64,000 nucleotides of DNA from NCBI RefSeq assembly GCF_055900595.2, contig NZ_CM148325.1. One strand, written 5' to 3'. Positions 1 to 43,265 of the stretch are shown here, piece after piece. Made by a program: the position numbers and the translations under genes. The notes beneath the pieces are model-generated. The model was not told the origin of the DNA and did not search any database. It was given only the letters and a program-made list of their open reading frames with translations. The first letter of the stretch is position 1; each line of letters begins with the position of its first letter.

Positions 1-133
1 CATCGGAGAGATCCGGCAGCGCATCCACTGGCGTGTTAATGATAGTCCAGGTGCCCCAGATACTCAGAAACAACGCGCCCATCAGCACCAGAAAACGGTT
101 CGCCACCGAGCGACGAATAATCCATTCAATCAT
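1..133 (-). CDS. cusA: CusA RND copper/silver efflux pump, N-terminal fragment only (gene runs off the window edge)
   Basis: Reverse complement translates [44 protein letters not shown] from ATG at 131-133, directly downstream of the cusB stop; matches remembered CusA N-terminus. Confidence 0.85.
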
Positions 134-144
134 TGGTTATTCCC

Positions 145-1368
145 TCAATGCGCATGGGTAGCACTTTCAGAGCGCATCCGCTCCAGTGCGCCAGAAATAT
201 TGGCTTCAGAATCAATCAGGTACAGGCCGCTGGAAACCACCTTTTCACCTTCCGCCAGACCAGAACGTAGCGCGGTGACGCCTTGCGACGCCTGGAAAAC
301 AGCAACGCGTTTCGGTACAAAGCGCCCGTCGGCATCAACGGTAATCACCCGCTGTTCGTTACCAGTATCAATCAGTGCCTGTGACGGAATGAGCAGCATC
401 GGTTCACTGGCGGTGTTGAGTTGCAACCAGGCGTTCATTCCCGGTTTTAGCGCCTCGTCGGCGTTGTCGACCTCCAGACGCAGTTGCAGCGTGCGGGTCG
501 CGGCATCCACGCCGGGTAGAAGGGTCCATTTGCGGATGCTGAGCGTTTTATCCGGTCGCGCCGGAACGGTGAGCGTAAATTGCGAGGCATCTTTCACCAG
601 CCAGGCGATGGACTCCGGGATCGCAGCAGTGACCCACACCGGGTCCATACCCTGAATTTTCGCGACCACGTTATCTTTGGCGATATTCATTCCCGCGCGC
701 AGATCAAACGCGGTGATCACGCCATCAATGGGCGCTTTGAGCGTAAAGCGAGTCTGGATTTTTTGCGTGGTAATCAGGCGGCGAATATCGGCCTCCGGCA
801 TTCCCGCCAGCCGCAGGCGCTCAAGAATGCCTTCAGTCTGGGTCGCCGTACCGCCGGTTTCGCGCAGCAGTAAATACTCACTCTGCGCTTCCACCCAGTC
901 GGGAATGGTCAGGTCGAGAAGCGGTGTGCCCTTTTGCACTTTATCGCCCACGGTGAGCGGATACACCTTGTCGATAAACCCGGCGGCGCGGGCCTGCACA
1001 ATGGCAAACTGATACTCGTTGTAACTCACATTCGCTGGGAAACTCTGGGCAAAAGTCAGCGGCCCGCGCGTGACGGTCGCCGTTTTCACCCCCAGATTTT
1101 GCGTCTGGGTCGGGTCAATGCGCACACCAGACGCAGAACTCTCTTCATCGGCATATTTCGGCACCAGATCCATATCCATAAACGGCGATTTACCTGGTTT
1201 ATCGAACCGCGTATTGGGATACATTGGGTCGTACCAGAATAAGACTTTACGTTCTGCGGTCGACGTTTTTTCTGCGGGCGGTTCAGCCTTTGCAAACCAG
1301 GTAAAACCTGCCGCAGAAATAATACCGCCCGCGATCATGCTGCCGATAATAAGCGCGATTTTTTTCAT
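145..1368 (-). CDS. cusB: CusB membrane fusion (periplasmic adaptor) protein of the CusCFBA efflux system
   Basis: 407-aa ORF with signal/lipid anchor-like N-terminus and adaptor-family sequence; order cusC-cusF-cusB-cusA. Confidence 0.9.
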   Translation of the reverse strand: MKKIALIIGSMIAGGIISAAGFTWFAKAEPPAEKTSTAERKVLFWYDPMYPNTRFDKPGKSPFMDMDLVPKYADEESSASGVRIDPTQTQNLGVKTATVTRGPLTFAQSFPANVSYNEYQFAIVQARAAGFIDKVYPLTVGDKVQKGTPLLDLTIPDWVEAQSEYLLLRETGGTATQTEGILERLRLAGMPEADIRRLITTQKIQTRFTLKAPIDGVITAFDLRAGMNIAKDNVVAKIQGMDPVWVTAAIPESIAWLVKDASQFTLTVPARPDKTLSIRKWTLLPGVDAATRTLQLRLEVDNADEALKPGMNAWLQLNTASEPMLLIPSQALIDTGNEQRVITVDADGRFVPKRVAVFQASQGVTALRSGLAEGEKVVSSGLYLIDSEANISGALERMRSESATHAH

Positions 1369-1383
1369 CTCATTAAACCTGGG

Positions 1384-1716
1384 TTACTGGCTGACTTTAA
1401 TATCCTGTAATAAAGAAAGGTTGCCCTGCTGGACAAAATTAAACGCTACTTTGTCGCCAGTTTTAATTTCACTCATTTTCGTCTGCGGGGTGATGGTAAA
1501 GCGCATGGTCATCTCCGGCCAGTTCACGGCAGCAATCGGATCGTGATGGATGGTGATTTTTTTGCTTTCCAGATCAACACCTTTTACCACACCGGTGGCG
1601 CTAATAACCTGTGGTTGTGCTTCGCTCATGGTTTCATGGTGATGTTCGTTAGCCTGGGCATTAAAGCCAATAACAGTAAACAGACTGAACATTACGACTT
1701 GCAGTGCTTTTTTCAT
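1384..1716 (-). CDS. cusF: CusF periplasmic copper/silver-binding chaperone
   Basis: 110-aa ORF with signal peptide, His-rich stretch (NEHHHETMSE) and position between cusC and cusB. Confidence 0.9.
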   Translation of the reverse strand: MKKALQVVMFSLFTVIGFNAQANEHHHETMSEAQPQVISATGVVKGVDLESKKITIHHDPIAAVNWPEMTMRFTITPQTKMSEIKTGDKVAFNFVQQGNLSLLQDIKVSQ

Positions 1717-1738
1717 TATTCTCTCCTGGAGTTAAAAT

Positions 1739-3121
1739 TTATTGCTGCCAACCGCCACCCAGGGCGGTATATAAGGAAACTTCGTTAACCTGACGGGCAT
1801 AATTCAGGTCGAGTAAAGTTTGTCGGGTTGCAAATAAAGAACGTTCGGCATCCAGCACTTCCAGATAACTTACCGCGCCGTGCTGATATAATGCCCGCGC
1901 CCGTTGCAGGGTAATTTGCAGCGACGCCAGATAACGCTGCTGGGCGCTGATTTGATCGTTCAGGCTTTGACGTAATGCAAGCGCATCTGCCACTTCTTTA
2001 AAGGCGTTCTGAATTTTCTGTTCATAATTCACCACCGACTGCTGCTGGCGAATTTCGGCGATATCCAGATTGGCCTGGTTGCGTCCGGCATTAAAAATGG
2101 GGATCTCAATTTTGGGAATAAAATTCCACATCCCGCTGCTGGCGTTAAATAATGATGACAGATCGCTGCTGGCGGTTGATATTCCACTGGTCAGGCTTAT
2201 AGACGGGAAAAATGCCGCACGCGCAGCACCAATATTGGCATTAGCCGCCATTAACGCGTGTTCAGCTTCCATAATATCCGGGCGCTGCAACAAGATTTGC
2301 GACGACAAGCCCGCCGGTAATTTAACGCTTTGCAGGCTGTCGCTGTTTACTGTCTGCGCTTGCGGCAGCTTGCCGTAGTTTCCCAATAACAGTTGCAATG
2401 CATTATTCGCCTGCGCCAGTTCCCCCTGACGTTTAGCGATATCACTGCGGGTACTTTCTATCACCCCGCGAGCCTGTTCCAGCGCCAGAACATTGCTGCT
2501 ACCAGTCAAAAGTTGTTTTTCGACAAACGCATATGACTGCTGATAATTACGCAGCGTTTCTTCGGCTATTTGTAATTGCGCATAAGCCAGTTGCTGATTG
2601 AAATAGCTTTGCGCGACATTAGAAACCAGCAGAATATGCACCGCGCGCTGAGCTTCCTCAGTGGCTAAATAATTTTGTCGCTCGGCTTCGCTCATGTTCT
2701 TTAAGCGACCGAAAAAATCGAGATCAAAGCTGGCGTTAAGGCCAGTCGAGAACTCCCGCGTCGTGGCTGAATCGCCTTTAAGATTGCCGCTCCAGCTGCC
2801 GCTACCCTCGCCATTGAGCTGCGGGTAGCGGTCGGCATCGGTCAGACGATATTGCGCCCGTGCCTCCTGCACTTTCAGCGTCGCCATGCGCAAATCCCGA
2901 TTATTCACCAGCGCCTCGCTAATCAGCGTCTTCACCTGATTATCAACAAAAAAGGTGCGCCAGCCCGCGTTCTGGTAGTTATCTACCGCGTTAACCAGGC
3001 CGTTCTGGCTGAGTGAGAACTGCTGCGGCACGGGCATTGCCGGACGCTGATATTCCGGTGCCAGTGAACAACCGGTTAGCGCAAGGGCCACACAAAATGG
3101 CAGAAGTTTACAAGGAGACAT
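1739..3121 (-). CDS. cusC: CusC outer-membrane efflux channel lipoprotein (TolC family)
   Basis: 460-aa ORF with lipobox (LTGCS) and outer-membrane factor repeats; divergent from cusRS. Confidence 0.9.
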   Translation of the reverse strand: MSPCKLLPFCVALALTGCSLAPEYQRPAMPVPQQFSLSQNGLVNAVDNYQNAGWRTFFVDNQVKTLISEALVNNRDLRMATLKVQEARAQYRLTDADRYPQLNGEGSGSWSGNLKGDSATTREFSTGLNASFDLDFFGRLKNMSEAERQNYLATEEAQRAVHILLVSNVAQSYFNQQLAYAQLQIAEETLRNYQQSYAFVEKQLLTGSSNVLALEQARGVIESTRSDIAKRQGELAQANNALQLLLGNYGKLPQAQTVNSDSLQSVKLPAGLSSQILLQRPDIMEAEHALMAANANIGAARAAFFPSISLTSGISTASSDLSSLFNASSGMWNFIPKIEIPIFNAGRNQANLDIAEIRQQQSVVNYEQKIQNAFKEVADALALRQSLNDQISAQQRYLASLQITLQRARALYQHGAVSYLEVLDAERSLFATRQTLLDLNYARQVNEVSLYTALGGGWQQ

Positions 3122-3190
3122 AGGCTCATAATTTCTGGTGATTTTATGCCGCCAACTTTACTCGCCAGGCTCTGATTTTCCGGTGACAGG

Positions 3191-3212
3191 AAAATGACAA
3201 AATTGTCATTTT
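3191..3212. promoter_or_regulatory. Palindromic CusR box in the cusC-cusR divergent promoter region
   Basis: Perfect inverted repeat AAAATGACAAAATTGTCATTTT seen in the cusC/cusR intergenic region; matches the remembered CusR binding consensus. Confidence 0.75.
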
Positions 3213-3277
3213 GCCAATAAGCGATTGCCATCTGATCCCGCTACTCTAGAATTGCCCGGGCAACATGCGGAGGAAAT

Positions 3278-3961
3278 ATGAAACTGTTGATTGTCGAAGA
3301 TGAAAAGAAAACCGGCGAATACTTAACCAAAGGGTTAACCGAGGCCGGTTTTGTGGTTGATTTGGCCGATAACGGGCTGAATGGATACCATCTGGCGATG
3401 ACAGGTGATTATGACCTGATAATCCTAGATATTATGCTGCCGGACGTGAACGGCTGGGATATCGTGCGTATGTTGCGTTCCGCCAATAAAGGGATGCCGA
3501 TTCTGTTGCTTACCGCGCTTGGCACCATTGAACATCGCGTCAAGGGGCTGGAGCTGGGAGCGGATGACTATCTGGTGAAGCCGTTCGCTTTTGCTGAACT
3601 GCTGGCGCGGGTGCGCACTCTACTGCGTCGCGGGGCGGCGGTGATTATCGAAAGTCAGTTTCAGGTTGCCGATTTAATGGTTGATCTGGTCAGCCGCAAA
3701 GTCACCCGCAGCGGCACGCGCATCACTTTGACCAGTAAAGAGTTTACTCTGCTGGAGTTTTTCCTTCGCCATCAGGGCGAAGTGCTGCCCCGCTCGCTTA
3801 TCGCCTCGCAGGTGTGGGACATGAATTTCGACAGCGACACTAACGCCATTGATGTGGCGGTGAAGCGGCTGCGCGGCAAAATCGACAACGACTTTGAGCC
3901 GAAGCTGATTCAAACCGTGCGCGGCGTGGGTTACATGCTTGAGGTGCCGGATGGTCAGTAA
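3278..3961 (+). CDS. cusR: CusR OmpR-family response regulator
   Basis: 227-aa ORF with receiver domain (LIVEDE...[11 protein letters not shown]) and winged-helix C-terminus. Confidence 0.9.
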
Positions 3962-5393
3962 GCCGTTTCAGCGCCCGTTTTCGCTGGCAACCCGCCTGAC
4001 CTTTTTTATTAGCCTGGCCACCATCGCGGCGTTTTTCGCCTTTGCATGGATCATGATCCACTCAGTAAAAGTGCATTTTGCCGAGCAGGATATTAATGAT
4101 TTAAAAGAGATTAGCGCCACACTTGAACGGGTACTTAATCACCCTGACGAAACGCAAGCCCGACGCTTAATGACGCTGGAAGATATTGTCAGTGGTTATT
4201 CCAATGTGTTGATTTCTCTGGCAGATAGCCACGGTAAAACGGTGTATCACTCCCCCGGCGCGCCGGATATCCGCGAGTTTGCACGTGATGCCATACCCGA
4301 TAAAGACGCTCGGGGCGGCGAGGTGTATCTCCTTTCCGGCCCGACAATGATGATGCCAGGCCACGGTCACGGGCATATAGAACACAGCAACTGGCGGATG
4401 ATTAACTTGCCGGTTGGCCCGCTGGTGGACGGCAAACCGATTTATACGCTCTACATCGCGCTGTCTATTGATTTTCATCTTCATTACATTAATGATTTGA
4501 TGAATAAACTTATTATGACCGCATCGATCATCAGCATCCTGATCGTCTTTATCGTGCTGTTGGCGGTACATAAAGGCCACGCGCCAATTCGCAGCGTCAG
4601 CCGTCAAATCCAGAACATTACCTCGAAAGATCTCGACGTTCGCCTCGATCCACAGACCGTGCCCATTGAACTGGAACAACTGGTGCTGTCGTTCAACCAT
4701 ATGATCGAGCGTATCGAGGATGTCTTTACCCGCCAGTCCAATTTCTGTGCGGATATCGCCCACGAAATTCGCACGCCGATTACGAATCTCATAACGCAAA
4801 CGGAAATCGCCCTCAGCCAGTCGCGCAGCCAGAAGGAGCTGGAAGATGTGCTCTACTCTAATCTCGAAGAGCTGACGCGAATGGCGAAAATGGTCAGCGA
4901 TATGCTGTTTCTCGCTCAGGCCGATAACAACCAGTTAATCCCCGAAAAGAAAATGCTCAACCTGGCGGATGAAGTTGGTAAAGTGTTCGATTTTTTCGAG
5001 GCGTTAGCGGAAGATCGCGGCGTAGCACTACGGTTTGTTGGCGACAAATGTCAGGTTGCGGGCGATCCGCTGATGCTGCGTCGGGCGCTAAGCAACCTGC
5101 TTTCTAACGCCCTGCGTTATACGCCGCCCGGAGAGGCAATTGTAGTGCGCTGTCAAACGGTCGATCACCAGGTGCAAGTTACCGTCGAAAACCCCGGTAC
5201 GCCCATTGCGCCCGAGCACTTACCGCGTTTGTTTGACCGTTTCTACCGCGTTGATCCTTCCCGCCAGCGAAAAGGTGAAGGTAGCGGTATTGGTCTGGCG
5301 ATAGTGAAATCAATTGTTGTCGCGCATAAAGGCACGGTTGCGGTAACGTCAGATGCGCGGGGGACAAGGTTTGTTATCATATTACCCGCTTAA
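3951..5393 (+). CDS. cusS: CusS sensor histidine kinase
   Basis: ORF 3939-5393; start placed at the internal Met ([10 protein letters not shown]) that gives a 480-aa protein overlapping the cusR stop; HisKA (HEIRTP) and HATPase motifs. Confidence 0.85.
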
Positions 5394-35822: not shown

Positions 35823-37151
35823 CTGATGAATCCCCTAATGATTTTGGTAAAAATCATTAAGTTAAGGTGGATACACATCTTGTCATATGATCAAATGGTT
35901 TCGCCAAAAATCAATAATCAGACAACAAAATGTGCGAACTCGATATTTTACACGACTCTCTTTACCAATTCTGCCCCGAATTACACTTAAAACGACTCAA
36001 CAGCTTAACGTTGGCTTGCCACGCCTTACTTGACTGTAAAACTCTCACTCTTACCGAACTTGGCCGTAACCTGCCAACCAAAGCGAGAACAAAACATAAC
36101 ATCAAACGAATCGACCGATTGTTAGGTAATCGTCACCTCCACAAAGAGCGACTCGCTGTATACCGTTGGCATGCTAGCTTTATCTGTTCGGGCAATACGA
36201 TGCCCATTGTACTTGTTGACTGGTCTGATATCCGTGAGCAAAAACGGCTTATGGTATTGCGAGCTTCAGTCGCACTACACGGTCGTTCTGTTACTCTTTA
36301 TGAGAAAGCGTTCCCGCTTTCAGAGCAATGTTCAAAGAAAGCTCATGACCAATTTCTAGCCGACCTTGCGAGCATTCTACCGAGTAACACCACACCGCTC
36401 ATTGTCAGTGATGCTGGCTTTAAAGTGCCATGGTATAAATCCGTTGAGAAGCTGGGTTGGTACTGGTTAAGTCGAGTAAGAGGAAAAGTACAATATGCAG
36501 ACCTAGGAGCGGAAAACTGGAAACCTATCAGCAACTTACATGATATGTCATCTAGTCACTCAAAGACTTTAGGCTATAAGAGGCTGACTAAAAGCAATCC
36601 AATCTCATGCCAAATTCTATTGTATAAATCTCGCTCTAAAGGCCGAAAAAATCAGCGCTCGACACGGACTCATTGTCACCACCCGTCACCTAAAATCTAC
36701 TCAGCGTCGGCAAAGGAGCCATGGATTCTAGCAACTAACTTACCTGTTGAAATTCGAACACCCAAACAACTTGTTAATATCTATTCGAAGCGAATGCAGA
36801 TTGAAGAAACCTTCCGAGACTTGAAAAGTCCTGCCTACGGACTAGGCCTACGCCATAGCCGAACGAGCAGCTCAGAGCGTTTTGATATCATGCTGCTAAT
36901 CGCCCTGATGCTTCAACTAACATGTTGGCTTGCGGGCGTTCATGCTCAGAAACAAGGTTGGGACAAGCACTTCCAGGCTAACACAGTCAGAAATCGAAAC
37001 GTACTCTCAACAGTTCGCTTAGGCATGGAAGTTTTGCGGCATTCTGGCTACACAATAACAAGGGAAGACTCACTCGTGGCTGCAACCCTGCTTACTCAAA
37101 ATCTATTCACACATGGTTACGTTTTGGGGAAATTATGAGGGGATCTCTCAG
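35823..37151 (+). mobile_element. IS10 insertion sequence (1329 bp) with 9-bp target-site duplication
   Basis: Ends CTGATGAATCCCCTAATGATTTTGG... and ...GAAATTATGAGGGGATCTCTCAG; flanked by direct repeats TGCCAAGCA at 35814-35822 and 37152-37160. Confidence 0.95.
35930..37138 (+). CDS. IS10 transposase
   Basis: 402-aa ORF beginning 107 bp inside IS10, matching IS10 transposase sequence. Confidence 0.95.
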
Positions 37152-38301
37152 TGCCAAGCACTACTTTTCCTCTAACGATGCAGATGATGGTGATACTACT
37201 TATGCCCGTCTTGGCTTCAAAGGTGAAACCCAAATCAACGATCAACTGACTGGTTTCGGTCAGTGGGAATATGAATTCAAAGGCAACCGCGCTGAATCTC
37301 AAGGTTCCTCCAAAGACAAAACCCGTCTTGCATTTGCAGGCCTGAAATTCGGTGACTACGGCTCAATCGATTACGGCCGTAACTACGGTGTAGCATACGA
37401 CATCGGTGCGTGGACTGACGTCCTGCCAGAATTCGGTGGTGATACCTGGACCCAAACAGATGTGTTCATGACTGGTCGCACTACTGGTGTTGCAACTTAT
37501 CGTAACAACGACTTCTTTGGTCTGGTCGATGGCCTGAACTTTGCTGCTCAGTATCAGGGTAAAAATGACCGCACTGACGTAACTGAAGCCAATGGTGATG
37601 GTTTCGGTTTCTCCACTACTTATGAGTATGAAGGATTCGGCGTGGGTGCAACCTATGCTAAATCAGATCGCACTGACGGTCAGGTCGCCTATGGTAAGAG
37701 CAAATTCAATGCCTCCGGCAAAAATGCGGAAGTATGGGCTGCAGGCCTGAAATATGATGCGAACAATATCTATCTGGCTACCACATATTCTGAAACTCAG
37801 AATATGACCGTTTTTGGTAATAACCATATTGCAAACAAAGCACAAAACTTTGAAGCAGTAGCACAATATCAGTTTGACTTCGGTCTGCGCCCATCTGTTG
37901 CTTACCTTCAGTCAAAAGGTAAAGACCTTGGTGTTCATGGTGACCGAGACTTAGTCAAGTATGTCGATGTCGGTGCTACTTACTACTTTAATAAAAACAT
38001 GTCCACTTTTGTTGATTACAAAATCAACTTAATTGACGATAGTAAGTTTACCAAAACAGCTGGTATTGATACTGATGACATCGTTGCTGTAGGTCTGGTT
38101 TACCAGTTCTAATCTGATTACGAAAAAGATATGTTGCGGGAGGCGTTGCCTCCCCAACATATAAGTGGCTCCCTCAAGCCACTTCCTTTAGAAGCACAAC
38201 CTTGCTTCTAACTATATAAACCTTCTGTTATATATTACCCTTTATTTTTGGGGGCGTCTCAACGCCCCATTTTTAATAATTTTTAGTAAACAATTGGCAT
38301 A

Positions 38302-39557: not shown

Positions 39558-39720
39558 GATTCCTCCTTGCTGCCAGTCGCAACCATTTTTTATCAACCAG
39601 GCTAGCGGTATATCCGAGCAGTGTTGGTATTTCGGATGGCTTCAGCTCAGGCTTACGCTTACGACGATTTGATACTCTGTAGATGTGTCCGTTCATGACA
39701 CGAATAAGCGGTGTAGCCAT
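39550..39720 (-). CDS. ninE: NinE-like small basic protein (below ORF-track cutoff)
   Basis: 56-aa [59 protein letters not shown] read from the minus strand; start overlaps ybcN stop and stop overlaps ybcO start. Confidence 0.6.
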   Translation of the reverse strand: MATPLIRVMNGHIYRVSNRRKRKPELKPSEIPTLLGYTASLVDKKWLRLAARRNHG

Positions 39721-40175
39721 TACGCCTCCTGCTTGTCGCGGAGCAGCTGGAACTCGCAGCTCTGCGGAATAGTCAGGTGGCAGCCAATATTCATCGCCCA
39801 GGCTTCAACCTTACACAGGAAGACATACATCTCTCCGGTATCAAGATTGGAGGTATGGCGTAACGACTGGATAGTGGTGATATCACCGGTTACGACATCA
39901 ACCAGGTCTTTGGTTTCATAACCGAGATATGTGTGTTTGAGAGCATCTTTTACCCAAGCTGGAGTGGCGAACGTTTTACCCCTGCTGATGAGGTATTCAC
40001 TGATTTCGCTGTACCACATGTGGCTGAGTGCATTCTGGGAAAGACTGCGTTTCTCACGCCACGGTTTAAGCACCAGGCGAAAGCATTTGCCCTCCTCCAG
40101 ATAAGGCTGGATCTGCCGACCGATAGCGGTGAAGTTGCCGCGATGTAATTTGATGCCGTCTTGTGAGAGGTTCAC
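39720..40175 (-). CDS. ybcN: NinB/YbcN recombination protein
   Basis: 151-aa ORF matching remembered DLP12 YbcN / lambda NinB family. Confidence 0.8.
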
Positions 40176-40208
40176 GCTTCCCCTCCGCAGAGGTCAAACG
40201 TTGGATGC

Positions 40209-40333
40209 AAAAAAACGCAGGTGCATTTCTGCATCTGTGAAGGGAGAAGAGAGTTTGGATTGTATGTGCGCATAAACGTCCCCGTTTAGCGCAGAAGTCA
40301 CCGGAGTTGTTCAGGCTCCGATGACATGATTAT
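40209..40333 (-). repeat. Direct repeat copy A (~125 bp) with terminator-like hairpin at its 3' end on the minus strand
   Basis: About 85 percent identical to 42596-42720; minus-strand hairpin CAGATGCA-gaaa-TGCACCTG followed by a T7 run (plus-strand 40209-40237). Confidence 0.6.
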
Positions 40334-40359
40334 GGCGGGTTGATTATTGAAAATCAAAG

Positions 40360-41037
40360 TTAATCGTACGAGTCGAGTATGTTCTGAAACGCCCAGCCAT
40401 CCTCCTTAGGAACACAAGACAGAATCGAATGAATTAGATCCCCTGCGGAAAGAAGTAACCCTTCTTGCCCTTCAAGAAAATAACGCCATTTAGGTCCATG
40501 AAACAGATTGTTCCGTAACCGGAAACAAACGAACAAGCACACTGCAAGCTGAGTCTCAGGCTCGGTTGTCATAGCTTGCATGGCTGAAAAACAGTCATCT
40601 CTCGCCTTTTGAGAGGTGTGGTGTAATTCCCCGCATAGGCTTTCAAACTTGCTTTTATCATTTACATAGCGTTCTGAAAAAAAATCGTATGTACACTTGA
40701 GAACCCCCAGATCCACAACCTCCATTTGCAAAAGACGATTGGCATATTTCGCACTTTTGCCTTGCCCCCCAGCGCAATTAAGAAGTAGAGACTCGAAGAA
40801 AGAGAAGTACAAAAAATAACGATTAACGGCGGTAAGGATAGATGGGGTAATCCTGCCTTCTGCATTAATCAACTCGTCAAATTCTGATGAAAAATCCAAC
40901 TGTTCATCCTTTTCCATTATATTCGGCCATTTATTGATATTGCACATCAGTCGCTCTTGGCAATGACAGGTTTGCTCTCGGTAATGTCTCAAACGCCCCA
41001 AAAAGTAGTCTCGCAAATGCTCTAGTTGCTCGCGCAT
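40360..41037 (-). CDS. Hypothetical protein with Rx4-6H (HEPN-like) motif; candidate abortive-infection cargo
   Basis: 225-aa ORF, no recognisable phage core function; contains RLRNNLFHG matching the HEPN Rx4-6H signature. Confidence 0.4.
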   Translation of the reverse strand: MREQLEHLRDYFLGRLRHYREQTCHCQERLMCNINKWPNIMEKDEQLDFSSEFDELINAEGRITPSILTAVNRYFLYFSFFESLLLNCAGGQGKSAKYANRLLQMEVVDLGVLKCTYDFFSERYVNDKSKFESLCGELHHTSQKARDDCFSAMQAMTTEPETQLAVCLFVCFRLRNNLFHGPKWRYFLEGQEGLLLSAGDLIHSILSCVPKEDGWAFQNILDSYD

Positions 41038-41197
41038 AACAACTTCGGCGATAACCGGCTATTCGGTCGTTCTTTATACGCTACGCTTGAAGGCGCAAGG
41101 CCAACGCTTACCTTGTCACGTTCCTATTGCGGTTTTGCTGCAATGTTCCTGTCAGTCTGACATAAAAAACCCCTCAATCATCTGAGGGGATTAGACA

Positions 41198-41398
41198 TCA
41201 TTGCTTCCAATACTTTTGAACCCGGATATTCATTGGCACACAAACATTTTCATAGATAGGGCCGCTAACAGTCATGACTATATAAATACCATCAAGACCA
41301 TCAATATTAAGCGAGAGTCTATCTCCGGCTCTAACCTCACGCTCTAGTTCAATATCTTCTACTCGTCCAGTATCATCGAAAGTCACTGAATACATCAT
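41198..41398 (-). CDS. Hypothetical small protein
   Basis: 66-aa ORF between Bro-N gene and the HEPN-like gene, same strand. Confidence 0.35.
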   Translation of the reverse strand: MMYSVTFDDTGRVEDIELEREVRAGDRLSLNIDGLDGIYIVMTVSGPIYENVCVPMNIRVQKYWKQ

Positions 41399-41560: not shown

Positions 41561-42169
41561 CTATTGCAATCTAGCCTGACGCAAATGTGGCAATACCCTG
41601 CTCCACTTATTATCCTGCCAAGGCTGGAATTTTACATGTGCCGTTTTTCTGGCAAGGATTTCGCGCGCCTTATGTAGTATCTGGGGATATTCTTGCTCGA
41701 TAGAAGTAAAGCGACCGGCTTCGCGGTGTTCCGCAACCTGAAGAAGTGGAGTAACGTTCTGGCAGGCGGTTAACATCGTATCACTTGCTCGCCATAACCA
41801 AGCAAGTGTGCAAAGTTCGTTATCAGTGAATTGTTTTGTGATCGGGGATTGTTGAACTTCTCGATCGAGAATATCCAGAACCCAGCGGCGGAACTCTTTG
41901 GCTACAGGAGTTCGTGCAAACATGGCGATCAAATGGGCTCCGCGAAGGCTAAATACTCGAGACTCCTGCATTCCACGAGGGGTGGTCACTTTGACCACCC
42001 TTGTCATCATATCTGTAAATTCATCTGAGTGACGAGAGTAAATGCGCTGAACTGCTTTATCGTCCGCATATTCCAGAGCTAAACCAACTTCAGTGGCAGT
42101 AAGCCAAATTCTGTTATTGTGGCAAATTGGGGTAAACGTCGTTTTGTGGAATGCTAATTGAGTAGTCAT
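41561..42169 (-). CDS. Bro-N domain protein (antirepressor-like)
   Basis: 202-aa ORF; N-terminal half fits Bro-N pattern (F..F.....RI.LTATEV..ALEY...RIYSRHSDEF...RVF...G..LIA....TPVAKEFRRWVLDIL). Confidence 0.6.
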   Translation of the reverse strand: MTTQLAFHKTTFTPICHNNRIWLTATEVGLALEYADDKAVQRIYSRHSDEFTDMMTRVVKVTTPRGMQESRVFSLRGAHLIAMFARTPVAKEFRRWVLDILDREVQQSPITKQFTDNELCTLAWLWRASDTMLTACQNVTPLLQVAEHREAGRFTSIEQEYPQILHKAREILARKTAHVKFQPWQDNKWSRVLPHLRQARLQ

Positions 42170-42595
42170 AGTATCACCTCATCAGGTTAACCATCACCAC
42201 CAACGACGCCAATCGACTGGTGGTGAACTGTGCAAGGTTGGCGTAACCGGCTACTCAAACCCGGCGCTCCCGAAGAAGCCCTCACACAGCCCACCATAAT
42301 TTGGGCGTAGCCGTGCTTAGCGCATAAAAAAACCGCTTAACGCGGTATGCGTTGAGTAGTATTCCGGGACGCCAATCCCGTGTGCCGATTTTGCGGCAAC
42401 GCACAGAATATAGCGCCGGATAAATAATGTCGTCAACCCTTGCAAATGGGTGGCGCGATGATCACTACTACCACTATAACCGCTCCAACTGTTGCAACTA
42501 CTTTAGGCCAAGACATCAAGATTTCCATATCACCTTTAGCTGCGAAACGAACAGAGGTTCCCATCTCTATACTGCCGAGGCCAAACACCGAATAT

Positions 42596-42720
42596 AAAAA
42601 ACCGCAGGTGCATTTCTGCATCTATGACGGGAGAAGATAGTTTGGATTGTGTGGGCTCATAAACTCCCCGTTTGGTGCAGTAGTCACCGTAGTTGTTCAT
42701 ATTCTGATGACATGATAATT
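42596..42720 (-). repeat. Direct repeat copy B (~125 bp), paralogue of 40209-40333
   Basis: Aligns base-for-base with copy A at about 85 percent identity; weaker hairpin plus T-run on minus strand. Confidence 0.6.
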
Positions 42721-42917
42721 TCCTATTGAATAGAAAAAATTAACACTACTCATTCTTATGACTAGAAAAAGCAATCATGCTAATAATCATTGTTGTTCCA
42801 GTTCCAAATGCAGCGAAATAATCACTAATATTTTTTCTACCGGTTTCGACTTTGATGCTATATTCTGCTAACACCTAACTAACACTACGTTTCACACAGC
42901 AATTACATGGAAATAAC

Positions 42918-43265
42918 ATGACTATCAAAGCGACTGACATAGAGATTCTTCATCGTTATGCTGAAGGGGTAATGGAACGTTCTAACCATCATGCAAAAAA
43001 TGTTGGTGCAGCCGCTCTTACATTGCTAGGAGGTGTTATCTGGAAAGCCCTGCCCGGCTCAATCGAGATAAGAACGTATAACGGAAGTCTTGCAAATATG
43101 GTGTGGTGGCAAAGCGAAAGAACATTAAAAAATTATGCAATCTCATACAACCATAATTCATGTGAAATTGAAATGAGAGATGAATCAGTCAAAGGTGCTG
43201 TATTATTTAGCATTTCCAACGAAACCACTCCAGAAAAAATATTATCACAGCTTTCTGAGCTTTAA
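42918..43265 (+). CDS. Hypothetical protein, opposite strand to the surrounding early-right operon
   Basis: 115-aa ORF with AT-rich upstream region and a GGCGGTG-ctaa-CACCGCC hairpin right after its stop. Confidence 0.45.
   Translation: MTIKATDIEILHRYAEGVMERSNHHAKNVGAAALTLLGGVIWKALPGSIEIRTYNGSLANMVWWQSERTLKNYAISYNHNSCEIEMRDESVKGAVLFSISNETTPEKILSQLSEL

What the first reader, a model, noticed from the sequence alone, without database searches (positions are those of the whole stretch)
40360..41037. 225-aa nin-region protein with an Rx4-6H (HEPN-like) motif: candidate abortive-infection effector
The ORF has no resemblance to standard lambdoid nin genes. Its C-terminal third contains RLRNNLFHG, which fits the Rx4-6H signature of HEPN RNases found in many Abi and toxin proteins. 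It sits downstream of a Bro-N (antirepressor-like) gene inside the repeat-flanked insert. The assignment rests on a short motif only and is speculative.
Basis: inference. Interest (0 to 1): 0.55.

Follow-up and report, generated by a model that had tools for sequence, protein, structure and literature searches.

The report
Stand-alone HEPN nuclease gene in prophage
This prophage gene encodes a small, uncharacterised protein that is probably a dormant RNA-cutting enzyme, and it sits exactly where a related prophage carries HepS, a proven anti-phage suicide nuclease, so it is a good but untested candidate for a new single-gene phage-defence protein.

Summary
The 225-codon ORF (40360-41037, minus strand) and RLRNNLFHG are real, but the gene model is too long. 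Its first 40 codons are read-through from a broken DNA polymerase III theta (HOT-like) pseudogene. All homologues start at Met41, giving 185 aa (40360-40917).

The Rx4-6H motif alone is not significant: 74% of shuffles contain one. Its conservation is. E42, R135, N137 and K143 are invariant and H140 is 99% conserved across 121 homologues averaging 21% identity.

The strongest clue is position. In near-identical E. coli prophages the same slot (theta, cargo, ninB) holds:
- a close HepS homologue (E=7e-62 to PDB 9OIJ), the Gifsy-1 solo-HEPN abortive-infection anticodon nuclease;
- a classical HEPN pair;
- a divergent 160-aa member of this family.

Best reading: a latent solo HEPN RNase for prophage-encoded defence. 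RNase activity, target, trigger and expression are all untested. This is a new member of a known kind, of moderate interest.

The parts
40360..40917 (-). Probable true coding sequence: a 185-aa stand-alone HEPN-like protein (MEKDEQLDF...DSYD).
   Evidence: All homologues are 183-203 aa and align from Met41 of the long ORF. UniProt holds an identical 185-aa entry, A0ABD5C261. dN/dS is 0.12-0.19 against the closest relatives. The AF2 model has pLDDT 88.4 and pTM 0.85.
40495..40521 (-). Codons for RLRNNLFHG (residues 133-141 of the 185-aa protein, 173-181 of the 225-aa ORF). This is the predicted HEPN active-site motif: R135, N136/N137, H140.
   Evidence: Read directly. R135 and N137 are invariant and H140 is 99% conserved in 121 homologues. 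The motif lies at the end of helix 120-139, with H140-G141 non-helical in the model.
40918..41037 (-). The 40-codon N-terminal extension of the annotated 225-aa ORF. It is not part of the HEPN protein and derives from the theta pseudogene.
   Evidence: Residues 2-23 match Pol III theta. In intact cassettes this DNA is the 3' half of theta, read in another frame at its end.
40910..41163 (-). Pseudogene of a phage DNA polymerase III theta (HOT-like) homologue. It has a stop at codon 4 (ATG TCA GAC TGA), and the remaining similarity is spread over three reading frames.
   Evidence: tblastn with an intact 84-aa theta gives three pieces in three frames. Supported by the DNA alignment with LR-50 and 95-3322, the translation and direct reading.
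41170..41189 (-). Intrinsic-terminator-like hairpin (CCCCTCAGATGATTGAGGGG followed by TTTTTT), immediately upstream of the theta start codon.
   Evidence: Conserved in LR-50 and 95-3322.
40213..40236 (-). Terminator-like hairpin downstream of the HEPN gene, inside the conserved linker that precedes ninB. A related copy lies at 42603-42620.
40166..40357 (.). Right-hand copy of a ~195-nt conserved linker (direct repeat). It starts right after the HEPN stop codon and is the shared right boundary of all cargo variants in related prophages.
   Evidence: Repeat families D1 and D2. The four-prophage alignment becomes near-identical from this point.
42553..42743 (.). Left-hand copy of the ~195-nt linker repeat (76-78% identical). 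It bounds the inserted module on the replication-gene side.
41198..41398 (-). 66-aa gene of unknown function, between the antirepressor gene and the terminator.
   Evidence: ORF. Full-length match to phrog_38858 at 1e-50, function unknown.
41561..42169 (-). Antirepressor-like gene (Ant/Bro-N type N-terminus, P22AR C-terminal domain).
   Evidence: PHROG anti-repressor families, 1e-54 to 3e-5. RefSeq product name in strain B1S11.
42216..42436 (-). Regulatory head of the module: a sigma-70-like promoter (42436-42407), isrK-like RNA (42326-42398), c4 target a1b1 (42361-42413) and C4 antisense RNA (42216-42301).
   Evidence: Rfam C4 72.7 bits (gathering 45) and isrK 60.7 bits (gathering 50), both above threshold. 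c4-a1b1 scores 40.6 bits, below its gathering score of 46.7. The promoter-like site matches 10 of 12 positions.
39720..40175 (-). ninB/ybcN, the conserved gene downstream of the slot. It is the start of the ordinary nin region (ninE, ybcO, rusA, ylcG, Q).
   Evidence: phrog_72 NinB/Orf at 1.5e-51. RefSeq names.

Best explanation
The real gene is a 185-aa stand-alone HEPN-fold protein. It belongs to a large, uncurated family of ~160-200-aa proteins that UniProt loosely labels 'Apea-like HEPN'. The gene is carried as exchangeable cargo in an accessory slot of a lambdoid (DLP12-like) prophage, just upstream of ninB.

Proposed mechanism:
1. The protein sits in the lysogen as an inactive oligomer.
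2. A cue made by an infecting phage activates it.
3. Two protomers then bring together their R135-N-N-x-x-H140 motifs, helped by E42, R83, R133 and K143. This forms a metal-independent RNase site.
4. The enzyme cuts tRNA or other RNA, stops translation and aborts the infection.

Shown here: the ORF and its true start; purifying selection; motif conservation; the predicted fold and motif position; the swap-in, swap-out relationship with a HepS homologue and other HEPN genes at the same slot.

Inferred, not shown: RNase activity, oligomeric state, RNA target, trigger, expression in the lysogen, and any phage phenotype.

The upstream theta (HOT-like) gene is a linked passenger that is decaying in this strain. 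It is not a required partner.
For: Gene and selection:
- Homologues are 183-203 aa and start at Met41.
- dN/dS is 0.12-0.19.

Family size:
- A profile search of 1.84 billion representative proteins gives 546 hits at E<=1e-3, mostly 160-180 aa stand-alone proteins.
- 1,674 clusters score E<=1 in the 5.8-billion-protein set.

Catalytic signature:
- E42, R135, N137 and K143 are invariant. R133, H140 and G141 are 99% conserved, at 21% mean identity.
- A polar residue follows the Arg, and there is an upstream invariant acidic residue, as described for HEPN (PMC3710099).

Structure:
- AF2 pLDDT 88.4, all-alpha. The motif ends helix 120-139, and H140-G141 lie in the break.
- Foldseek against AFDB50 gives TM 0.63-0.89 over the full length. 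More than half of the 50 hits listed are named Apea-like, RiboL-PSP or MAE_28990-like HEPN. One family member carries that UniRef name.

Position (same slot, with an identical right boundary):
- HepS homologue in 95-3322, E=6.9e-62 to PDB 9OIJ.
- Pfam HEPN PF05168 protein (1.7e-5; PADLOC candidate PDC-M28A) plus a 133-aa partner in O111:H11.
- A 25%-identical 160-aa member of this same family in IAI1 and STEC313.
- HepS is a proven, partner-less, constitutively expressed, tail-tip-activated anticodon nuclease (PMC13043305).
- ApeA is a HEPN anticodon nuclease activated by dinucleotides (bioRxiv 10.64898/2026.01.26.701840).

Contexts of distant relatives:
- They lie near SMODS+SLATT, TIR, NACHT, MmeI and Eco29kI restriction genes, IS elements and mobile-element genes, with no conserved partner.
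Against: - No curated model recognises the protein. Pfam-A finds no HEPN family at E<=10 for the query, and none at E<=0.1 in 122 relatives. NCBIfam and PADLOC are negative.
- A profile search of all PDB sequences finds nothing. Foldseek against PDB finds nothing significant.
- The 'Apea-like HEPN' labels are automatic database names and could not be reproduced with Pfam.
- The gene lies in the early-right operon orientation, between two terminator-like hairpins. No promoter-like site lies directly upstream. It may therefore be expressed only during lytic growth.
- It is rare: 4 of 5,426 complete E. coli genomes, and absent from 50,697 GenBank phage records.
- In this strain the loss of theta removes the translational coupling seen in intact cassettes.
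Confidence: 0.55

Rival explanations
1. It is a HEPN RNase that serves the phage's own lytic programme rather than defending the lysogen. It would be made as a delayed-early product with the nin genes, and would cut host or competitor RNA to help replication or to counter host defences.
For: The gene is co-oriented with the O, P and nin genes and lies between terminator-like hairpins typical of the nin region. In intact cassettes its start overlaps the end of theta, a replication accessory gene, which suggests coupled translation. No promoter-like site lies directly upstream.
Against: The same slot carries HepS, which acts as a defence in the lysogen and is constitutively expressed (PMC13043305). 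Distant relatives lie in non-phage defence islands. The gene is absent from all sequenced phage isolates searched. It is patchy and rare, as accessory cargo is.
Confidence: 0.2
2. Theta and the HEPN protein form a two-gene toxin-antitoxin-like module, with the small upstream theta-like protein neutralising the HEPN toxin.
For: A theta homologue or remnant lies directly upstream of the HEPN gene in 17 of the 18 enterobacterial loci retrieved independently of context. The ORFs overlap by 11-14 nt in intact cassettes. This small-upstream, larger-downstream layout resembles TA operons. Theta also precedes the divergent 160-aa member and the HepS homologue.
Against: Theta is broken or truncated while the HEPN ORF stays intact in the window, B1S11, L004-L006, L015, L023, IAI1, STEC313 and 95-3322. 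It is absent in L021 and in all distant relatives. Theta also occurs with no cargo or with unrelated cargo. HepS, in the same position, works alone.
Confidence: 0.04
3. The protein is not a nuclease. It is a helical-bundle protein whose conserved Arg, Asn and His residues serve binding or structure, such as a ligand- or protein-binding HEPN-like adaptor, or a fold unrelated to HEPN.
Against: Non-catalytic HEPN domains typically lose the Rx4-6H motif. Here it is the most conserved element, together with an invariant Glu and Lys. The motif sits where HEPN active sites sit.
Confidence: 0.15
4. The annotated 225-aa product is real: a theta-fragment-HEPN fusion protein with a new function.
For: The 225-codon ORF is open. 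RefSeq annotates it as WP_024238538.1 in strain B1S11.
Against: No homologue has this N-terminus. The extension comes from a frameshifted pseudogene with a stop at codon 4. Three databases call three different starts: 225, 195 and 185 aa. By eye, no Shine-Dalgarno-like sequence precedes the 41037 ATG.
Confidence: 0.05

Closest known systems
HepS ('HEPN Solo'), the Gifsy-1 prophage abortive-infection anticodon nuclease of Salmonella Typhimurium (Sargen et al., Nature 2026, PMC13043305; PDB 9OIJ/9OIK)
   Same: A single small HEPN-type protein (<250 aa) with an R-N-x-x-x-H motif and no partner gene. It is carried as accessory cargo of a lambdoid prophage next to antirepressor and replication genes. 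A HepS homologue (E=6.9e-62) occupies exactly this slot, with the same theta gene upstream and the same linker downstream, in E. coli 95-3322.
ApeA defence system / Pfam HEPN_Apea (PF18739)
   Same: UniProt names many structural neighbours and family members 'Apea-like HEPN domain-containing protein'. ApeA is a single-gene HEPN abortive-infection system that cleaves tRNA anticodon loops (bioRxiv 10.64898/2026.01.26.701840).
   Different: ApeA is ~580 aa, with N-terminal and Mid domains that form a dinucleotide-sensing pocket, and it assembles into decamers. This protein is 185 aa and lacks those domains. Neither the Pfam HEPN_Apea model nor the PADLOC library, which should hold an ApeA model, matches it or its relatives.
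HepT/MntA (HEPN/MNT) type VII toxin-antitoxin systems and classical Pfam HEPN (PF05168)
   Different: There is no adjacent nucleotidyltransferase or any conserved partner, and no PF05168 match.
Tha, the tail-activated HEPN defence of Staphylococcus aureus prophages (PMC11087260)
   Same: A prophage-encoded HEPN effector that guards the lysogen against incoming phages (abstract seen).
   Different: A different host and phage group. No sequence comparison was made here. This is a functional analogy only.
Phage P1 HOT / DNA polymerase III theta (PF06440)
   Same: The first ~23 residues of the 225-aa ORF, and the 254 nt upstream of the true start, derive from a phage theta homologue.
   Different: Only a fragment is in frame. 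The gene is disrupted in this window and is not part of the HEPN protein.

Membership tests
HEPN superfamily (as defined in Anantharaman et al. 2013, PMC3710099) | A conserved Rx4-6H motif, with a polar residue (N, D or H) right after the Arg. | tested here: met
   R135-N136-N137-L-F-H140. R135 and N137 are at 100%, H140 at 99% and N136 at 91% in 121 homologues.
HEPN superfamily (as defined in Anantharaman et al. 2013, PMC3710099) | The motif lies at the end of core helix 3 and the start of the loop to helix 4. | tested here: met
   In the AF2 model, helix 120-139 ends at F139 and H140-G141 are non-helical. Helices 142-147 and 151-168 follow. This rests on a prediction, not a solved structure.
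HEPN superfamily (as defined in Anantharaman et al. 2013, PMC3710099) | A second conserved acidic residue in the N-terminal helical hairpin. | tested here: met
   E42 is invariant and lies in helix 25-46. It is not in an Ex3[KR] context, and which core helix this is remains uncertain.
HEPN superfamily (as defined in Anantharaman et al. 2013, PMC3710099) | A four-helix up-down bundle fold that matches solved HEPN structures. | tested here: inconclusive
HEPN superfamily (as defined in Anantharaman et al. 2013, PMC3710099) | Metal-independent RNase activity from a composite dimeric active site. | not testable with these tools
   Needs biochemistry, or multimer modelling with access to coordinates.
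Pfam HEPN_Apea (PF18739) / ApeA defence system | A match to the HEPN_Apea profile, or to an ApeA model in PADLOC. | tested here: not met
   No such hit at E<=10 for the query, and none at E<=0.1 in 41+80+1 relatives. PADLOC gave no ApeA hit for the query or for 10 relatives.
Pfam HEPN_Apea (PF18739) / ApeA defence system | ApeA N-terminal and Mid domains (~580-aa architecture, ligand pocket). | tested here: not met
   The protein is 185 aa and the family is typically 160-200 aa.
Pfam HEPN_Apea (PF18739) / ApeA defence system | Structural neighbours annotated as Apea-like HEPN. | tested here: met
   More than half of the 50 AFDB50 Foldseek hits listed carry that UniProt name, including a 70%-identical Klebsiella oxytoca protein. 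These are automatic names and are weak evidence.
HepS family | Sequence homology to HepS (PDB 9OIJ). | tested here: not met
   Profiles A2 and A3 against all PDB sequences give no HepS hit at E<=10. hhalign against the E. coli HepS homologue gives probability 0.07%.
HepS family | A stand-alone HEPN protein of <250 aa, with no conserved partner, carried on prophages. | tested here: met
   It occupies the same slot as a HepS homologue.
HepS family | Activation by the siphovirus tail-tip protein J, and cleavage of tRNA anticodon loops. | not testable with these tools
   Experimental properties of HepS.
HepT/MntA type VII toxin-antitoxin | An adjacent MNT nucleotidyltransferase antitoxin gene. | tested here: not met
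   The neighbours are theta (or its remnant) and ninB. Distant relatives have no conserved neighbour.
DNA polymerase III theta / HOT (PF06440), for the N-terminal 40 residues only | A full-length, uninterrupted theta domain. | tested here: not met
   Only model positions 41-62 of 70 are in frame. The upstream gene has a stop at codon 4 and is split over three frames.

The most novel reading that the evidence does not exclude
This ~160-200-aa 'mini Apea-like HEPN' family is a new, widespread single-gene anti-phage system. It has at least 546 representative clusters across many bacterial groups and no curated model. On this reading it works like HepS but has a different fold elaboration and a different, unknown trigger. 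The theta-to-ninB junction of enterobacterial lambdoid prophages would then be a dedicated hotspot where alternative solo-HEPN sensors are exchanged by recombination at a conserved ~195-nt linker. A more speculative extension is that the recurrent linkage to a theta (HOT) gene reflects function, such as sensing of replication proteins, rather than shared ancestry.
Probability: 0.4. Interest if true: 0.65.

Novelty: new member of a known kind. Interest (0 to 1): 0.48.

Why it matters
- **A second family to compare with HepS.** If confirmed, this would be a second sequence-unrelated family of solo HEPN abortive-infection nucleases, in the same prophage slot as the recently characterised HepS. 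It would show how different minimal HEPN proteins sense infection without partner proteins or sensor domains.
- **A mappable exchange site.** The slot has a precisely conserved right boundary and at least four different HEPN cargos in near-identical E. coli prophages. That makes it a practical place to mine for further small defence genes.
- **An annotation error.** The RefSeq 225-aa model (WP_024238538.1) fuses pseudogene sequence to the real protein.
- **A gap in the libraries.** A family of this size has no Pfam, NCBIfam or PADLOC model, so defence-finding pipelines currently miss it.

Tried and rejected
Searches that gave nothing useful:
- Pfam-A on the 225-aa ORF, on 41 and then 80 family members individually, and on a member that UniRef names 'Apea-like HEPN'. 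No HEPN family appeared at any listed threshold.
- NCBIfam and PADLOC on the query and ten diverse relatives. There were only chance-level hits.
- PHROGs gave only an unnamed family (phrog_27260, 9e-9) plus theta families for the N-terminus.
- Profile searches of all PDB sequences with two family alignments. The only hit was a bacterioferritin at E=0.55.
- Foldseek against PDB: nothing significant.
- hhalign of the family against the HepS-like slot occupant: no relationship.
- tblastn against 50,697 GenBank phage records: no match.
- Literature search for the RefSeq accessions, and for 'homolog of theta' with prophage: nothing.
- Supplementary files of the two key papers held no usable sequences.

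Ideas considered and rejected:
- Theta as antitoxin: rejected because theta decays while the HEPN gene stays intact.
- A conserved partner gene among distant relatives: the neighbours of L009, L010, L011, L032 and L034 share no similarity.
- The 225-aa fusion as the real product.
- The motif as evidence on its own: it is expected by chance.

Not done:
- I could not obtain a bona fide ApeA sequence or the model coordinates. A direct ApeA comparison and active-site geometry checks were therefore not possible.
Full report
**1. What is in the sequence**

An ATG-to-stop ORF of 225 codons lies at 40360..41037 on the minus strand. RLRNNLFHG is at residues 173-181 (window 40521..40495, read).

The surrounding genes, all on the minus strand, form the early-right arm of a lambdoid, DLP12-like prophage. 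In order they are:
- O-like and P-like replication genes;
- an antirepressor-like gene (41561..42169);
- a 66-aa gene (41198..41398);
- the ORF in question;
- ninB/ybcN, ninE, ybcO, rusA, ylcG and a Q-type antiterminator.

Two copies of a ~195-nt sequence (40166-40357 and 42553-42743, 76-78% identical) bracket the antirepressor, 66-aa, ORF segment.

**2. The gene model is too long**

Residues 2-23 of the ORF match the C-terminal part of DNA polymerase III theta (Pfam PF06440 i-E 0.0018; phrog_1105 7e-6; NCBIfam PRK10969).

DNA alignment with E. coli LR-50 and 95-3322, plus tblastn with an intact 84-aa phage theta, show a theta (P1 HOT-like) gene directly upstream. In the window it is dead:
- it has a stop at codon 4 (ATG TCA GAC TGA, 41163 downward);
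- the remaining similarity is split over three frames.

One of those frames runs into the downstream gene and creates the extra 40 codons.

Evidence that the true product is 185 aa (40360..40917):
- Homologues are 183-203 aa. Those inspected (27 aligned proteins and 13 locus ORFs) begin at the equivalent of Met41 (MEKDEQLDF...), or with an unrelated Q/E-rich leader.
- UniProt holds the identical 185-aa form.
- RefSeq's WP_024238538.1 (225 aa) and an ENA call of 195 aa are alternative start guesses.

**3. Is the motif more than chance?**

Not by itself. The 225-aa ORF contains four Rx4-6H matches, and 74% of shuffled versions contain at least one. Conservation is what matters.
- In 27 enterobacterial homologues, CFRLRNNLFHGPKWR is invariant.
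- A profile search of 1.84 billion representative proteins found 546 relatives at E<=1e-3, nearly all stand-alone and 160-180 aa.
- 1,674 clusters scored E<=1 in the 5.8-billion-protein set.
- Across 121 diverse members (mean identity 21%), E42, R135, N137 and K143 are invariant. R133, H140 and G141 are at 99%, R83 at 98% and N136 at 91% (185-aa numbering).
- The gene is under purifying selection, with dN/dS 0.12-0.19 against its nearest relatives.

**4. Fold**

AlphaFold2 on the 27-sequence alignment gave a confident all-alpha model (pLDDT 88.4, pTM 0.85). The motif closes helix 120-139, and His140-Gly141 sit in the break before helices 142-147 and 151-168.

Anantharaman et al. 2013 describe the HEPN site in the same terms (PMC3710099):
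- a polar residue after the Arg;
- a second conserved acidic residue upstream.

Foldseek against AFDB50 returned full-length matches (TM 0.63-0.89). More than half of the 50 hits listed are named "Apea-like HEPN domain-containing protein". A few are named RiboL-PSP-HEPN or MAE_28990-like HEPN. One of the Apea-like hits is a 70%-identical Klebsiella protein.

The evidence against solved structures is weak:
- Foldseek against PDB found nothing.

No curated profile matches:
- Pfam on the query and on 122 relatives individually;
- NCBIfam and PADLOC;
- all PDB sequences.

I therefore call it HEPN-like on motif, predicted topology and database neighbours. It is not a demonstrated member of any curated HEPN family.

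**5. Context**

*The cassette.* In Klebsiella, Citrobacter, Enterobacter, Salmonella and E. coli prophages the gene sits in one cassette: terminator-like hairpin, theta, this gene (starts overlap by 11-14 nt when theta is intact), conserved linker with a second hairpin, then ninB.

*Theta is not a required partner.*
- It is intact in some loci (L007, L008, L013, L014, L017, L024, L026).
- It is frameshifted, truncated or absent in many others, while the HEPN-like ORF is always intact.
- Distant relatives lack theta entirely and share no partner gene.
- Theta also occurs with other cargo or with none.

*The same slot holds other HEPN genes.* In other E. coli prophages the slot shares the same right boundary to the base. 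Four strains show different cargo:
- **Strain 95-3322** carries a 210-aa protein (RNKYAH) that is a close homologue of HepS (E=6.9e-62 to PDB 9OIJ).
- **O111:H11 strain 88.0502**, whose prophage is otherwise ~96% identical over 83% of a 10.5-kb stretch, carries a Pfam HEPN (PF05168, 1.7e-5; PADLOC candidate PDC-M28A) plus a 133-aa gene.
- **IAI1 and STEC313** carry a DUF4145 protein, a theta pseudogene, and a 160-aa protein. The 160-aa protein is a 25%-identical member of this very family (VIRIRNNLFHGNK).

*What HepS is.* HepS (Sargen et al., Nature 2026, PMC13043305) is a Gifsy-1 "HEPN Solo" protein. It is constitutively expressed and inactive as a tetramer. The tail-tip protein J of infecting siphoviruses switches it on. 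It then cuts tRNA anticodon loops and aborts infection. It has no partner gene.

*Prevalence in 5,426 complete E. coli genomes.*

| Slot occupant | Genomes |
|---|---|
| This clade | 4 |
| 160-aa branch | 56 |
| HepS-like | 18 |

None of 50,697 GenBank phage records encodes this protein.

*Distant relatives.* They lie near SMODS+SLATT, TIR, a giant NACHT protein, MmeI and Eco29kI restriction genes and IS elements. One lineage lies beside a urease operon.

**6. Mechanism proposed**

By position, architecture and signature, the most likely function is a latent solo HEPN RNase used by the prophage to protect its host. The proposed steps are:
1. It rests as an inactive oligomer.
2. A phage-derived cue activates it.
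3. A composite R135/N136-N137/H140 site forms, with E42, R83, R133 and K143 as candidate helpers.
4. It cleaves tRNA or other RNA, and translation stops.

None of steps 1-4 has been shown. All of them are inferred by analogy with HepS and ApeA. ApeA is a dinucleotide-activated HEPN anticodon nuclease (bioRxiv 10.64898/2026.01.26.701840). What has been shown for this gene is listed in sections 2 to 5.

Expression is uncertain.
- The gene lies between two terminator-like hairpins with no promoter-like site directly upstream.
- The module as a whole begins with a promoter-like site and C4 and isrK-type regulatory RNAs upstream of the antirepressor. This layout is reminiscent of the P1 immI and Gifsy isrK-anrP regions, which I know from the literature and did not test here.

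**7. Rivals**

| Rival | Confidence | Basis |
|---|---|---|
| Lytic-cycle RNase that benefits the phage | ~0.2 | Operon position |
| Non-catalytic or non-HEPN helical protein | ~0.15 | Negative profile and PDB searches |
| Real theta-HEPN fusion | ~0.05 | Open 225-codon ORF and RefSeq call |
| Theta as antitoxin | ~0.04 | Essentially excluded by theta decay |

**8. Novelty and score**

The kind, a prophage-encoded solo HEPN abortive-infection nuclease, is known (HepS, and by analogy ApeA and Tha). The HEPN label already exists as automatic UniProt names for some relatives. What is new:
- the corrected gene model;
- recognition that a large, uncurated mini-HEPN family shares HepS's slot;
- the theta-to-ninB junction as an exchange point for at least four HEPN cargos.

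It is a solid, testable candidate rather than a surprise. Interest is about 0.48, and the rating is "new member of a known kind".

Noticed in passing
window 42216-42436 (-): Upstream of the antirepressor gene are Rfam matches to C4 antisense RNA (72.7 bits) and isrK (60.7 bits), both above gathering score. The c4 a1b1 target element scores 40.6 bits, below its gathering score of 46.7. A 10/12 sigma-70-like promoter lies at 42436-42407. The insert therefore looks like a P1 immI / Gifsy isrK-anrP type antirepressor control module.
   Followed up: partly
window 40910-41163 (-): A phage DNA polymerase III theta (HOT-like) gene is a pseudogene here. Phage-type theta genes occur in 595 of 5,426 complete E. 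coli genomes (248 chromosomal and 388 plasmid places). In the E. coli loci inspected, theta is often annotated as frameshifted or carrying an internal stop when a HEPN gene follows it.
   Followed up: partly
L049:4897-5693 (E. coli O111:H11 88.0502); L046:492-1983 (IAI1); L003:3187-3819 (95-3322): The slot upstream of ninB holds different HEPN-type cargo in near-identical prophages. The cargos are a PF05168 HEPN plus a 133-aa gene; DUF4145 plus a theta pseudogene plus a 160-aa mini-HEPN; and a HepS homologue. This suggests a HEPN-rich exchange hotspot.
   Followed up: partly
window 40279-40357 and the same stretch in L003, L046, L049: The conserved linker right after each cargo's stop codon contains a perfect inverted repeat, CACCGGAG(N9)CTCCGGTG. 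It is followed by a 33-aa ORF that overlaps the ninB start (40172-40273, annotated in RefSeq). The linker is almost base-identical across four prophages. Its role (recombination junction, RNA structure or leader peptide) is unknown.
   Followed up: no
window 35930-38112 (+): An IS5/ISVsa5-type transposase gene (402 aa, 35930-37138) abuts a 5'-truncated OmpC/NmpC-like porin gene (37135-38112), next to the Q antiterminator. From memory, this resembles the IS5-interrupted nmpC of DLP12. The same arrangement is annotated in O111:H11.
   Followed up: no
L020:~4001-4654 and other 195-217-aa homologues: Longer family members carry a variable Q/E-rich low-complexity N-terminal leader. One has a run of about 20 glutamines. 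The 185-aa clade lacks this leader.
   Followed up: no
L034:4068-4559: Beside a distant family member next to a urease operon is a 163-aa protein with its own R-D-V-A-E-H (Rx4H) motif. It may be a second HEPN-like gene in tandem.
   Followed up: no
window 42918-43265 (+): A 115-aa ORF lies on the opposite strand between the P-like gene and the insert. It is a full-length match to phrog_5959 (1e-80), of unknown function, and is also present in B1S11 and O111:H11.
   Followed up: no
L047:1501-1779 (E. coli NC101): In NC101 the 160-aa mini-HEPN is cut down to a 92-aa ORF and theta is frameshifted. This shows that the cassette can decay.
   Followed up: no
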